Positions 1-3,000 of a stretch of 5,246 bases of DNA are shown piece by piece. Each line of letters begins with the position of its first letter. Position 1 is the first letter of the stretch. This DNA comes from a virus (lineage: Duplodnaviria; Heunggongvirae; Uroviricota; Caudoviricetes). A program made the position numbers. The stretch lies in IMG/VR virus record IMGVR_UViG_2737471855_000006, one strand, 5' to 3'.

Positions 1-3000
1 TTTGAATATAACGGTGTGTCCGTCACGCTGTCGGAGCTGTCCGCGCTGCAGCGGTTTGATTATATGAAGTTTGTTTCAGACGCAGAACAACAGGGGACAA
101 CGAAGCATGATGTCGTGCACATTAACCAGCGATATCTGGAAACGGCATCCCTGCTTGTGGCGATGTCGCTATGGCATTCCCATTCCCTCAAAGGCACTCT
201 GGCCTCTCCGGAGACAGAGATGCAGCAGATCCGCCGTGAAGTGATGCTGGGATGGCCTGCTGATGCACTGAATCAGGCAACGAACCGGGTGCTTTATCTT
301 TCAGGTATGCTGGATAACCGGCACGATGCCGATCCTGAACAAACCGGGAAAGCAGAAGCGACTGAGCCGGTAACATCAAAAAAGCATTCGAAGGCGAGCT
401 GAACTTTGTCCTGAAACTGGCGCGAGAGATGGGGAGACCCGACTGGCGCGCCATGCTTGCCGGGATGACATCCACCGAATATGCCGACTGGCGACGTTTT
501 TACTGCACGCATTATTTTCAGGATACCCAACTGGACGCTCATTTTTCCGGGCTGATGTACGCCGTACTCAGCCTGTTTTTTGGCGATCCGGATATGCATC
601 CGGCGGATTTCAGTCTGCTTGCTCCAGCGTGTGAGGAAGCGCAGACGGAGATGCCGGACGAGGAAGACATGCTGATGCAGAAAGCGACAGGAGTTGCCGG
701 AGGCGTCCGGTTCGGAGGGGACGGAGGGCGCGATATTTCACCTTCTGCGGATGTGGTGGATGTCAGCGAGGATGATGTTGCATTAATGATGGCTTCAGCG
801 GGGATTTCCGGAGGTGTGAGATATGTCCCAGCCAGCGGGTGATCTTGTTATTGATTTGAGTCTGGATGCGGCCCGGTTTGATGAACAGATGGCCCGGGTA
901 CGCCGTCATTTTTCCAGTCTGGAGGCGGATGCCAGAAAAACCGCCAGTACTGTTGAACAGGGCCTGAGCCGTCAGGCGCTGGCTGCGCAAAAAGCCGGGA
1001 TTTCCGTCGGGCAGTATAAAGCGGCCATGCGAACCCTGCCCGCACAGTTCACGGATATTGTCACTCAGCTTGCCGGTGGTCAGAATCCCTTCCTTATCAT
1101 GCTGCAGCAGGGGGGGCAGATCAGCGATTCATTCGGTGGACCGCTCAGCCTGCTTACCCTGCTGAAGGAGGAACTTCTCGGGATCAGGGATGCCTCTGAA
1201 TCATCAGAGGATTCGCTGTCAGATACGGCAAATGCACTGGCTGAAAATGCCCGGAATGCCGGTGAACTGGGACGATTTATGTCGGTGGCCCGTGTGGCGG
1301 CAGGTGGCGGGGTTGCCGTACTGGCCGCGCTTGCTGCTGCCGCCTGGCAGGCAGAGCAGGCTGACCGGGCCTTATTGCGTTCACTGACCCTGACCGGAGG
1401 GGCGGCTGCCACCACAACGGCCGAATTGTGGAAAATGGCCGGGGTGATCAGCGATGAAGCCGGTGGTGGTATCAGACAGGCGGCAGAAAATCTGGCCCGT
1501 CTGGCAGAAAGCGGGAAATATACCGCCGGGCAGCTACGGATCATGGGGGAAACCTCTCAGAGATGGCTGCAGACGGTGGGGGACGATGCCGGGAAGGTGG
1601 AAAAAGCCTTTGAAGGGATTGCAGCAGATCCGGTGAAGGCGCTGGCCTCCCTGAATCAGCAGTATAACTTCCTGAGCGTTTCCCAGTTACGCCATATTGA
1701 TGAGCTTGAGCGCACGAAAGGTAAACAGGCTGCGGTGACGGAGGCGATGTCCCTGTTTGCGGATGTCATGAATGCACGTCTGGAGCAACTTGATAAAGCG
1801 GCCACGCCGGTGGAAAAAATCTGGGACGATGTTAAAACCTGGACTTCTGACGCATGGGCATGGATAGGTGATCATACACTGGGGGCACTCAGTTTGATCA
1901 CTGACGTGGTGGCCGGAACCGTTGAACAGGTGAAGCTGCTGCTTGTGCAGGGGGATCTGGCGCTGGCTGAATTTATTCAGTCAGCCTGGGAAACGACAAA
2001 GAATGTGCCCGGCGTTGGTGCGTTGTTTGGTGAACTGGCAGAAGAGAACCGCGTATTTATTGAGAAGACAAAACGCGATGAACTGGCGCTGAGAAAATCC
2101 ATTGCGGAACGGGATGCGCGTATACGCCAGGGGGAAATGGGGTACATCAACCGTTCGCGTGCAACAGGCGTCAGCAAAGGTCCGGGGCAGCAGGAAGCCG
2201 TCAGCCGTCTGGCTGAAGAGCTGACAGGTAAAAAGCATACATCACCGAAAACGCGCTCTGCCGGGGAGAGGGAAGAGGAGCAGGCAAGAGAGGCTCTGCT
2301 TGCCCTTGAAGCTGAACTCAGGACGCTGGAAAAACACAGCGGTGCGAATGAGAAAATCAGCCGGCAACGCCGTGATTTATGGAAGGCGGAAAGTCAGTAT
2401 GCGGTCCTGAAAGAGGCCGCCACGAAACGGCAGTTATCCGGGCAGGAAAAATCCCTGCTGGCTCATGAGAAAGAAACGCTGGAGTACAAACGCCAGCTGG
2501 CTGAGCTGGGCGACAAGGTGGAGCACCAGAAACGCCTGAATGAGCTGGCACAGCAGGCGGCACGGTTTGAAGAGCAGCAGAGCGCGAAGCAGGCCGCTAT
2601 CAGCGCAAAAGCCCGCGGTCTCACTGACCGTCAGGCGCAGCGGGAGTCTGAAGCGCAGCGTCTTCGTGACGTGTATGGCGATAATCCGCAGGCGCTGGCA
2701 CAGGTCACCGGGGCACTGAAACAGACATGGGCGGATGAAGACATGCTGCGCGGTGACTGGCTGGCCGGGCTGAAGTCCGGCTGGGGGGAGTGGGCGGAAA
2801 GTGCGACGGACAGTTTTTCGCAGGTTAAAAGTGCGGCCACGCAGACCTTTGATGGTATTGCACAGAATATGGCGGCGATGCTGACCGGTGCAGAGGCAGA
2901 CTGGCGGGGATTCACCCGTTCGGTGCTGTCCATGATGACAGAAATCCTGCTTAAACAGGCCATGGTGGGCATGGTTGGGCGTATCGGCAGCGCCATTGGC

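What the first reader, a model, noticed from the sequence alone, without database searches (positions are those of the whole stretch)
346..402. G to G-T frameshift uses A_AAA_AAG; a lambda-type GGGAAAG heptamer 32 nt upstream is out of phase
The T frame (frame 0) is closed by TGA at 363-365, and G terminates at 400-402. The -1 shift must therefore happen within codons 366-399, and the only slippery heptamer there is A_AAA_AAG at 378-384, in exact X_XXY_YYZ phase with G. A GGGAAAG heptamer (the motif I recall as the lambda G-T slip site) sits at 346-352, but in the G frame it reads GGG-AAA, not G_GGA_AAG. A -1 slip there would hit the stop at 363-365 after six codons. So this phage appears to have the chaperone frameshift at a dnaX-type site, with the lambda-type heptamer present but unusable. 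Whether that is a relic of a shifted site or a coincidence is open. No obvious downstream stimulatory hairpin or upstream SD-like stimulator is visible by eye.
Basis: partly seen in the sequence, partly recalled or inferred. Interest (0 to 1): 0.45.

Follow-up and report, generated by a model that had tools for sequence, protein, structure and literature searches.

The report
Lambda-type G-T frameshift site, AAAAAAG variant
This is the well-known lambda tail-chaperone G/G-T -1 ribosomal frameshift in an E. coli lambdoid prophage: the slippery heptamer sits at the same position as in lambda but reads A_AAA_AAG instead of G_GGA_AAG, and the nearby out-of-phase GGGAAAG is a coincidence.

Summary
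G (frame pos%3=1) stops at TGA 400-402. The T frame is closed by TGA 363-365 and open to 840-842. The only in-phase X_XXY_YYZ heptamer in the overlap is A_AAA_AAG at 378-384. GGGAAAG at 346-352 is read GGG_AAA_G.

The window is a tail module of an E. coli lambdoid (Stx-phage-like) prophage (G PF06894, T PF06223, tape measure). Lambda's G_GGA_AAG lies at the same position, ending 15 nt before the G stop, and the two G 3' ends align codon for codon. So the site did not move; only its first three bases differ.

In 101 related loci, every one has a single in-phase heptamer at that position (67 GGGAAAG, 34 AAAAAAG). More distant relatives use G_GAA_AAG, and only A_AAG is invariant. Published E. coli measurements give the two main heptamers near-equal efficiency.

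The upstream GGGAAAG aligns with lambda GAG-GAC and varies among close relatives (GGTAAAG, GGGAAAA). It is a coincidence, not a relic.

ATG 429 is not a conserved start (Phe in 46 of 78 distinct relatives) and has no SD.

Verdict: ordinary, a new member of a known kind.

The parts
1..402 (+). 3' part of gene G (tail assembly chaperone G; the first 7 codons lie outside the window), with stop TGA at 400-402
   Evidence: The full-length homolog (L003 1480-1902, 140 aa) matches Pfam PF06894 Phage_TAC_2 at E=6.5e-35. PGAP names it 'phage tail assembly chaperone G'. Frame and stop were verified.
378..384 (+). Slippery heptamer A_AAA_AAG, the inferred -1 programmed frameshift site (P-site AAA 379-381, A-site AAG 382-384)
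   Evidence: It is the only in-phase X_XXY_YYZ between the T-frame stop at 363-365 and the G stop at 400-402. It sits at the same position as lambda G_GGA_AAG, 15 nt before the G stop. All 101 related loci have exactly one in-phase heptamer at this position. A_AAG is invariant across 38 distinct family sequences.
346..352 (+). GGGAAAG read as GGG_AAA_G (Gly-Lys codons of G). It is a coincidental look-alike and not part of the signal.
   Evidence: It is out of phase. It aligns with lambda GAG GAC G. It is GGGAAAA in VT1-Sakai and GGTAAAG in 8 close relatives. Chance expectation is about 0.9 per window.
363..365 (+). TGA in the T (-1) frame. It is the upstream limit of the window in which a -1 shift can give G-T.
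384..842 (+). T-frame coding sequence read after the shift (152 codons, AFEGELNF...VPASG, stop TGA at 840-842). This is the T domain of G-T.
   Evidence: It matches Pfam PF06223 Phage_tail_T at E=1.7e-11. Third-codon-position entropy in the T frame is about 2.3 times that of positions 1 and 2, also in 402-428, which lies upstream of ATG 429.
429..431 (+). ATG used by PGAP and GenBank annotators as the start of a separate 'T' gene. It is probably just an internal Met codon of G-T.
   Evidence: The annotation is shown. The residue is Phe in 46, Met in 31 and Leu in 1 of 78 distinct relatives. The best anti-SD duplex upstream is -1.5 kcal/mol, against -13.3 for H, -9.7 for L and -7.7 for M.
393..461 (+). 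Candidate 3' stimulatory structure: a bipartite hairpin with an 8-nt spacer after the heptamer. Outer stem 393-399/455-461; inner stems 418-424/447-453, 427-428/443-444 and 430-433/438-441.
   Evidence: strand folding on 385-470 gives MFE -34.4 kcal/mol, z=-3.15, with 0 of 200 shuffles as stable; lambda has the same architecture (-36.5, z=-2.69). RNAalifold keeps the outer stem. 96.2% of cells are paired, 5 pairs show two-sided changes, and 0 of 500 shuffles reach the paired-cell or covariation values (1 of 500 reaches 5 two-sided pairs). Pair 393-461 is GC 34, AU 21, CG 12 among 78 distinct sequences. Synonymous-codon resampling gives only z=-2.1, p about 0.03, and the structure is degraded in cdtI-like relatives.
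823..3435 (+). Gene H (tail tape measure protein, 870 aa). It is the downstream neighbour and the binding partner of G and G-T.
   Evidence: It matches Pfam PF06791 TMP_2 at E=1.1e-45 and PF09718 Tape_meas_lam_C at E=1.1e-20. The ORF is listed.

Best explanation
The window carries the lambda-type tail assembly chaperone pair G/G-T of an E. coli lambdoid prophage. Most ribosomes translate G to TGA 400-402. A small fraction slip back one base while tRNA-Lys occupies both the P site (AAA 379-381) and the A site (AAG 382-384) of A_AAA_AAG. They re-pair with AAA 378-380 and AAA 381-383, continue at GCA 384-386 in the T frame, and make the fusion ...VTSKK-AFEGELNF... ending at 840-842.

The site is the positional homolog of lambda's G_GGA_AAG. 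Only the first three bases changed (GCG GGA AAG to TCA AAA AAG), a swap that published E. coli measurements suggest is nearly neutral for efficiency. The GGGAAAG at 346-352 is an ordinary Gly-Lys codon pair of this G allele and has no role. A hairpin starting 8 nt downstream (393-461), shared with lambda, may raise the rate to the few per cent needed.

Shown: anatomy, phase, homology, conservation of the site, and T-frame coding upstream of ATG 429. Inferred: that slippage actually occurs here, its rate, and any role for the hairpin.
For: Anatomy and phase: there is a single in-phase heptamer in the 36-nt window where a shift can be productive.

Homology and context:
- G matches PF06894, T matches PF06223, and H is a tape measure protein.
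- The gene order V-G-T-H is seen in close relatives.
- The window is 98% identical to Stx1a-converting phages and 94% to VT1-Sakai.

Positional homology with the experimentally proven lambda site:
- Lambda reads ...TCT GCG GGA AAG TGT TCG ACG GTG AGC TGA.
- The window reads ...ACA TCA AAA AAG CAT TCG AAG GCG AGC TGA.

Conservation of the site:
- In 101 loci, each has exactly one in-phase heptamer ending 15 nt before the G stop: 67 GGGAAAG and 34 AAAAAAG.
- An arbitrary IMG/VR sample gave 70 GGGAAAG, 9 AAAAAAG and 1 AGGAAAG.
- More distant members have G_GAA_AAG at the same place. It is annotated as the PRF site in phage LLS.
- A_AAG is invariant.

T-frame translation upstream of ATG 429:
- Codon-position entropy in 402-428 is 0.42/0.39/0.95.
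- F405 and the L-A-R-E residues at 417-428 are invariant or nearly so.
- Residue 429 is Phe in 46 of 78 distinct sequences.
- ATG 429 has no SD.

Heptamer equivalence:
- Sharma et al. 2014 (PMC4066793, Table S3) measured AAAAAAG at 0.29/4.26/39.0% and GGGAAAG at 0.28/3.80/43.0% (no stimulator / IS911 stimulator / IS3 stimulator).
- Peng et al. 2019 (PMC6924986) state that G GGA AAG works almost as well as A AAA AAG.

Precedent: A_AAA_AAG is already accepted as a tail-chaperone slip site in another E. coli O157 prophage, ECs1801.
Against: There is no direct evidence (protein, ribosome profiling or reporter) for this allele; everything is comparative. No public record I inspected annotates a joined G-T CDS for this allele, and PGAP calls T separately from ATG 429. 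The protein database held no genuine fusion entry. The hairpin's support is moderate: with the protein sequence held fixed, z is only -2.1 and control segments reach similar values. It is also not kept in cdtI-like relatives.
Confidence: 0.9

Rival explanations
1. T is an independent gene translated from ATG 429, as the public annotations show. No frameshift is needed, and the AAAAAAG is incidental.
For: PGAP and the VT1-Sakai record annotate T as a separate CDS starting at the equivalent of ATG 429. The ATG is present in this window and in lambda.
Against: In lambda itself the same ATG exists, yet T is made only as G-T (Levin et al. 1993, established knowledge, as summarised in PMC5009743). 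The codon is Phe in 46 of 78 distinct relatives. The 15 T-frame codons upstream of it show third-position periodicity, and several of their residues are invariant. ATG 429 has no SD, at -1.5 kcal/mol against -7.7 to -13.3 for H, M and L.
Confidence: 0.04
2. The upstream GGGAAAG at 346-352 is a relic of an ancestral lambda-type slip site that was put out of phase by an indel, or it is still functional in some way.
For: It is identical to lambda's heptamer and lies only 32 nt upstream of the active site. An exact GGGAAAG within about 50 nt of the site is an uncommon coincidence if it had been specified beforehand.
Against: The last 23 codons of G align with lambda without any indel. The heptamer aligns with lambda GAG GAC G, not with lambda's slip site. 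It is polymorphic among near-identical relatives (GGTAAAG in 8, GGGAAAA in VT1-Sakai), whereas AAAAAAG is invariant in them. The other G alleles have unrelated sequence there. A shift there would terminate at TGA 363-365. About 0.9 occurrences per window are expected by chance.
Confidence: 0.02
3. The G-T fusion arises from transcriptional slippage of RNA polymerase on the A6 run (a one-base deletion in the mRNA) rather than from ribosomal slippage.
For: Homopolymeric A runs can cause transcriptional slippage (reviewed in PMC5009743 and PMC3711429).
Against: Productive transcriptional slippage is reported for runs of about 8 or more A or T (PMC3711429); this run has only 6 A. Homologs achieve the same outcome with GGGAAAG (3 A) or GGAAAAG (4 A) at the same position, which fits tandem tRNA slippage and not polymerase slippage.
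Confidence: 0.03

Closest known systems
Bacteriophage lambda G / G-T -1 programmed ribosomal frameshift (Levin, Hendrix & Casjens 1993; Xu, Hendrix & Duda 2004, 2013)
   Same: Same gene families (PF06894 and PF06223), same gene order ahead of the tape measure gene, and same -1 direction. The heptamer is at the same position, 15 nt before the G stop. The A-site A_AAG is the same. The downstream sequence is nearly identical, with the same predicted hairpin.
   Different: The first three bases of the heptamer are AAA instead of GGG, so the P-site tRNA is tRNA-Lys instead of tRNA-Gly and the junction is Lys-Lys instead of Gly-Lys. The G protein is a divergent allele (about 43% identity to lambda G), whereas T is about 70% identical.
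E. coli dnaX gamma/tau frameshift signal (A_AAA_AAG plus upstream SD plus downstream hairpin)
   Same: Identical heptamer in the same phase, and a possible hairpin a few nucleotides downstream.
   Different: There is no SD-like element 6-17 nt upstream. The shifted product here is longer than the 0-frame product, not shorter. The expected efficiency is a few per cent, not about 50%. The genes are not homologous.
Sharma et al. 2014 cluster A_AAA_AAG_25 (ECs1801, tail assembly chaperone of prophage Sp9 of E. coli O157 Sakai, marked 'true')
   Same: A tail assembly chaperone of an E. coli O157 lambdoid prophage that uses A_AAA_AAG for the -1 shift.
   Different: It belongs to a different tail-gene set (124-aa chaperone, a 3081-nt tape measure gene). 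Its heptamer abuts the stop codon (AGA AAA AAG TAG). I did not test it for homology to this G.
G_GAA_AAG sites of more distant lambda-type G/T genes (phage LLS, where it is annotated as the PRF site; also mEp237, mEp043, Flotzy, cdtI, Klebsiella Kp4865-4, Providencia PSTCR8lys)
   Same: Same family, same position, and same invariant A_AAG.
   Different: The P-site codon is GAA, which re-pairs to GGA with a G-U at the middle position. It is described as less slippery (PMC6924986). In many of these phages the G stop follows 0-3 nt after the heptamer.

Membership tests
Lambda-type tail assembly chaperone G/G-T with -1 programmed ribosomal frameshift | The upstream ORF is a homolog of lambda gpG | tested here: met
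   PF06894 Phage_TAC_2 at E=6.5e-35 for the full-length homolog. tblastn to lambda G gives 42.9% identity at E=1e-27.
Lambda-type tail assembly chaperone G/G-T with -1 programmed ribosomal frameshift | The overlapping ORF in the -1 frame is a homolog of lambda T | tested here: met
   PF06223 Phage_tail_T at E=1.7e-11. It is 70% identical to lambda T. The frame relation was verified.
Lambda-type tail assembly chaperone G/G-T with -1 programmed ribosomal frameshift | The pair is located between the major tail protein gene and the tape measure gene | tested here: met
   H (TMP_2 and Tape_meas_lam_C) starts at 823. V lies directly upstream of G in the 98.9%-identical locus L003 and in VT1-Sakai.
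Lambda-type tail assembly chaperone G/G-T with -1 programmed ribosomal frameshift | An in-phase slippery heptamer lies within the G/T overlap at the conserved position | tested here: met
   A_AAA_AAG at 378-384 is the sole in-phase heptamer and ends 15 nt before the G stop, as in lambda and in all 101 loci examined.
Lambda-type tail assembly chaperone G/G-T with -1 programmed ribosomal frameshift | T has no translation start of its own; the sequence between the slip site and the first ATG is under coding selection in the T frame | tested here: met
   Codon-position entropy is 0.42/0.39/0.95 in 402-428. Residue 429 is Phe in 46 of 78 distinct sequences. ATG 429 has no SD.
Lambda-type tail assembly chaperone G/G-T with -1 programmed ribosomal frameshift | Two products are made, G and G-T, at about 30:1, and both are required for tail assembly | not testable with these tools
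   This needs protein analysis and genetics. It is known for lambda only (PMC5009743; PMC3296357).
dnaX-type frameshift signal | A_AAA_AAG heptamer in phase | tested here: met
dnaX-type frameshift signal | An SD-like stimulator about 10 nt upstream of the heptamer | tested here: not met
   No GGAG, GAGG, AGGA, GGGG or GGGA occurs in the 20 nt upstream. The best anti-SD duplex is -4.3 kcal/mol, at the 22nd percentile of the window background.
dnaX-type frameshift signal | A stable stem-loop 5-9 nt downstream that stimulates the shift | tested here: inconclusive
   A hairpin at 393-461 with an 8-nt spacer is predicted, at z=-3.15 against dinucleotide shuffles. Against synonymous-codon resampling z is only -2.1. 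There is some covariation. Function was not tested.

The most novel reading that the evidence does not exclude
The lambda-family G-T frameshift, usually presented without a defined stimulator, may depend on a conserved bipartite 3' hairpin (window 393-461; lambda 10124-10192, i.e. L002 1125-1193) that starts 7-8 nt after the heptamer. This would explain two things. First, the heptamers give about 0.3% on their own in reporter assays but about 4% in lambda. Second, the first three bases of the heptamer can drift (GGG, AAA, GGA, AGG) while A_AAG and the downstream sequence stay fixed. No Rfam family matches this stretch of the window. I could not read Levin et al. 1993 to see whether this structure was already tested.
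Probability: 0.35. Interest if true: 0.4.

Novelty: new member of a known kind. Interest (0 to 1): 0.15.

Why it matters
It matters little for biology at large, because it is the textbook lambda G/G-T recoding event with a different but equally efficient heptamer. It has three practical uses.

1. Annotation. This allele is present in hundreds of complete E. coli genomes: 644 of 5426 have a match covering at least 80% of window 1-900. It is annotated with T as a separate gene from ATG 429. The correct product is a joined G-T CDS with slippage at 378-384.

2. A natural experiment. The family shows that only A_AAG is fixed while the P-site triplet drifts among GGG, AAA, GGA and AGG at one homologous site. 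That is a useful data point for models of tandem versus single-tRNA slippage.

3. A testable candidate. The shared downstream hairpin could be the stimulator of the lambda frameshift.

Tried and rejected
1. Searched for an already annotated G-T fusion protein of this allele with a junction-spanning query against 5.8 billion proteins. Only separate G and T entries came back. The one hit crossing the junction (P0001) has a garbled junction (PVNIKKSIRSELNF) and looks like an assembly indel artefact. P0081 is an internal deletion fusion of another allele. The database consists of gene-caller output, so this result is uninformative.

2. Checked whether Sharma et al.'s 'true' prophage cluster A_AAA_AAG_25 (ECs1801) is this gene. 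It is not. It belongs to prophage Sp9, which has a different tail-gene set.

3. Searched Rfam at E up to 10 over 300-560. Only two chance-level hits appeared (snoR35, Six3os1), and no frameshift element.

4. Ran a promoter and terminator scan of 1-900. Nothing exceeded shuffle expectation.

5. Looked for an upstream SD-like stimulator. None was found.

6. Tried to read Xu et al. 2004 (PMID 15469818) and Xu et al. 2013 (PMC3762263). Neither is held. Levin et al. 1993 is also not in the library, so what those papers say about downstream stimulators rests on my memory only.

7. The first genome-contig scan mostly returned lambda itself as a contaminant of unrelated assemblies. It added no diversity.

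8. The minus-strand ORFs overlapping the site (188-475 and 294-599) are mechanical listings. The codon periodicity fits the plus-strand T frame, and I did not pursue them.
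Full report
**1. Observation**

- The G frame (codon starts at positions with pos%3=1) is open from the window start to TGA 400-402.
- The T frame (pos%3=0) has stops at 336 and 363-365 and is then open to TGA 840-842.
- Within 1-450 there are only two XXXYYYZ heptamers.
- GGGAAAG at 346-352 begins at a G-frame codon start. 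It is read GGG_AAA_G and is out of phase for tandem -1 slippage.
- AAAAAAG at 378-384 is read TC[A_AAA_AAG] and is in exact X_XXY_YYZ phase.
- A -1 shift there continues with GCA at 384-386 and yields ...VTSKK-AFEGELNF....
- Each heptamer occurs once in the window. Chance expectation on both strands is about 0.9 and 0.6, so occurrence alone means nothing. Phase and conservation carry the weight.

**2. What the locus is**

- Bases 1-1200 are 98% identical to Stx1a-converting phages and about 94% identical to VT1-Sakai and CP-1639.
- 2356 of 5426 complete E. coli genomes have a match to 1-900, and 644 of them cover at least 80% of it.
- The ORFs are G (PF06894, E=6.5e-35), T (PF06223, E=1.7e-11) and the tape measure H (PF06791 and PF09718). 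M, L and a K-like ORF follow.
- In the closest annotated relatives the order is Z-U-V-G-T-H.
- Both PGAP and the VT1-Sakai depositors annotate T as a separate CDS that begins at the equivalent of ATG 429.

**3. The key comparison with lambda**

The two G 3' ends are:
- Lambda (J02459): ...CCT GAA CAG ACA GAG GAC GCC GGG CCC GCA GAG CCT GTT TCT GCG GGA AAG TGT TCG ACG GTG AGC TGA
- Window: ...CCT GAA CAA ACC GGG AAA GCA GAA GCG ACT GAG CCG GTA ACA TCA AAA AAG CAT TCG AAG GCG AGC TGA

They align codon for codon over 23 codons with no indel. Lambda's experimentally established slip site G_GGA_AAG and the window's A_AAA_AAG occupy the same seven columns, and both end 15 nt before the G stop. So this is not a different, relocated dnaX-like site. 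It is the lambda site with GGG replaced by AAA. The upstream GGGAAAG of the window aligns with lambda GAG GAC G, which has nothing to do with slippage.

**4. Family survey**

- In 101 sequences (the window, lambda, VT1-Sakai, E2865, 17 genome-contig loci and 80 IMG/VR loci), every one has exactly one in-phase heptamer in the G/T overlap. It always ends 15 nt before the G stop: 67 GGGAAAG and 34 AAAAAAG. That sample is biased toward close relatives of the window.
- An arbitrary sample of 80 IMG/VR loci, retrieved only by the conserved downstream motif, gave 70 GGGAAAG, 9 AAAAAAG and 1 AGGAAAG.
- All AAAAAAG cases share one G allele (...GTAACATCAAAAAAGC...), which suggests a single origin.
- That allele is only about 43% identical in protein to lambda G, while T is about 70% identical.
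- One locus (L071) joins another G allele carrying GGGAAAG to a window-type T start. This fits lambdoid mosaicism with a joint near the slip site.
- More distant family members carry G_GAA_AAG at the same position (mEp237, mEp043, Flotzy, LLS, cdtI, Klebsiella Kp4865-4, Providencia PSTCR8lys, and 44 further distinct IMG/VR sequences). In many the G stop follows 0-3 nt later. In phage LLS the depositors annotated it as the -1 PRF site.
- Across 38 distinct sequences the only invariant part of the heptamer is A_AAG.

**5. The upstream GGGAAAG**

It is GGGAAAA in VT1-Sakai and GGTAAAG in 8 near-identical loci. AAAAAAG never varies in that lineage. Other G alleles have unrelated sequence there. 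A slip there would terminate at 363-365. The open question of relic versus coincidence is therefore answered: coincidence.

**6. Is T translated on its own from ATG 429?**

The comparative evidence says no.
- Among 78 distinct family sequences, T-frame codon-position entropy in 402-428 is 0.42/0.39/0.95. This stretch lies after the G stop and before ATG 429.
- That is the same third-position signature as in the body of T (0.54/0.33/1.15).
- Phe405, Ala420, Arg423 and Glu426 are invariant, and Leu417 is present in 77 of 78.
- The codon at 429 is Phe in 46, Met in 31 and Leu in 1.
- The best anti-SD pairing ahead of ATG 429 is -1.5 kcal/mol. For H, L and M it is -13.3, -9.7 and -7.7.
- In lambda, where the same ATG exists, only G and G-T are made. 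This is established knowledge (Levin et al. 1993), as summarised in PMC5009743 and PMC3296357.

**7. Mechanism and efficiency**

With A_AAA_AAG, tRNA-Lys (mnm5s2UUU) sits in both P and A sites and re-pairs perfectly in the -1 frame.

| Heptamer | No stimulator | IS911 stimulators | IS3 pseudoknot |
|---|---|---|---|
| AAAAAAG | 0.29% | 4.26% | 39.0% |
| GGGAAAG | 0.28% | 3.80% | 43.0% |

- These values are from Sharma et al. 2014 (PMC4066793, Table S3), measured in E. coli.
- Peng et al. 2019 say the same qualitatively and call G GAA AAG less slippery.
- By inference the GGG to AAA swap should leave the G:G-T ratio roughly unchanged. That ratio is critical in lambda.
- A_AAA_AAG is already listed as a true tail-chaperone frameshift site in E. 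coli O157 (cluster A_AAA_AAG_25, ECs1801). I checked that gene, and it lies in a different tail-gene set, in prophage Sp9.
- Transcriptional slippage is unlikely. The run has only six A, and homologs do the same job with three or four A.

**8. Stimulators**

- Upstream: no SD-like element. No GGAG, GAGG, AGGA, GGGG or GGGA motif occurs in the 20 nt before the heptamer. The best anti-SD duplex is -4.3 kcal/mol, at the 22nd percentile of the window background.
In 385-470 the MFE is -34.4 kcal/mol, at z=-3.15 with 0 of 200 dinucleotide shuffles as stable.
- The structure has an outer stem 393-399/455-461 (GGCGAGC/GCUUGCC) that begins 8 nt after the heptamer. It also has a GC-rich inner hairpin at 418-453.
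- Lambda folds the same way (-36.5 kcal/mol, z=-2.69).
- RNAalifold on 38 distinct sequences keeps the outer stem.
- For my explicit structure, 96.2% of cells pair and 5 pairs show two-sided changes. 0 of 500 column shuffles reach the observed paired-cell or covariation values (1 of 500 reaches 5 two-sided pairs). Slid controls pair at 25-42%.
- With 78 distinct sequences, the closing pair 393-461 is G-C in 34, A-U in 21 and C-G in 12. The 3' partner is a synonymous third position of an Ala codon. Both the G-C and the A-U state occur within the GGAAAAG class with matched partners.
- Caveat 1: the structure was derived from one of the aligned sequences, and the sequences are related.
- Caveat 2: cdtI-like relatives do not keep it.
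- Caveat 3: when the protein is held fixed and codons are resampled, z is only -2.1 (p about 0.03) in both the window and lambda. Control segments of T range from -2.5 to +2.7.
- Overall I rate it a reasonable candidate, not a demonstrated stimulator. No Rfam family matches the region.
- I could not access Levin et al. 1993 or Xu et al. 2004 and 2013. My recollection, unverified, is that Levin et al. saw an effect of downstream sequence without assigning a simple structure.

**9. Comparison with known systems, and novelty**

- This works like, and by every testable criterion is a member of, the lambda-type G/G-T recoding system.
- It resembles dnaX only in the heptamer. It lacks the SD element, and the shift lengthens rather than shortens the product.
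- The A_AAA_AAG variant of the lambda-type site is not annotated in the records I inspected. I found no paper that names it. It is a straightforward allelic variant, so I class it as a new member of a known kind, of low interest.
- The most novel reading left open is the conserved 3' hairpin as the stimulator for the whole lambda-like group.

Noticed in passing
L006-L012, L014-L019 (genome-contig hits): Contigs with the lambda-type G/T junction (70% identity to the window's T, like lambda itself) turn up in assemblies labelled Neobacillus, Oceanobacillus, Pseudomonas, Kitasatospora, Chromatium, Shewanella, Tardiphaga, Paenibacillus, Enterococcus, Leeuwenhoekiella and others. Several have coverage tags of about 1x or lower. 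This looks like lambda DNA contamination or spike-in of those public assemblies rather than real prophages.
   Followed up: partly
window 1-402 versus 384-842; L071: There is a mosaic boundary at the slip site. The window's G is only about 43% identical to lambda G, while T is about 70% identical. The roughly 80 nt right after the heptamer are nearly identical to lambda. L071 combines a different G allele (with GGGAAAG) and a window-type T start, so G and T alleles reassort around the frameshift site.
   Followed up: partly
L106-L112 and 44 IMG/VR loci (L233 onward), position homologous to window 378-384: More distant lambda-type G/T genes use G_GAA_AAG, a heptamer that is not a strict X_XXY_YYZ. 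Often the G stop codon follows only 0-3 nt later (GGAAAAGTCCTGA, GGAAAAGCCCTAG, GGAAAAGTAG). One lambda-like locus (L143) has A_GGA_AAG through a synonymous GCG to GCA change.
   Followed up: partly
L003 2323-3900 (E. coli E2865) versus window 823-3435: In the 98.9%-identical E2865 prophage, PGAP marks the tape measure gene as a frameshifted pseudogene. In the window it is an intact 870-aa ORF.
   Followed up: no
L001 1929-2237 (VT1-Sakai) versus window 429-842: The T ORF annotated in VT1-Sakai is 309 nt, against 414 nt here. The megablast match to the window is split into two pieces covering 82%. This indicates an indel or replacement in the C-terminal part of T or at the T/H junction.
   Followed up: no
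window 4470-5213: The K-like ORF (starting MTQTESAILAHARR..., 247 aa from ATG 4470) has no detectable SD ahead of that ATG (0.6 kcal/mol). The mechanical ORF extends upstream to TTG 4209 and overlaps L. Its true start was not examined.
   Followed up: no
window 823-842: The H start ATG 823 lies 20 nt inside the end of the T frame (stop at 840-842) and is preceded by a strong SD (GGAGGTG, -13.3 kcal/mol). The T/H overlap is therefore arranged as in lambda.
   Followed up: no
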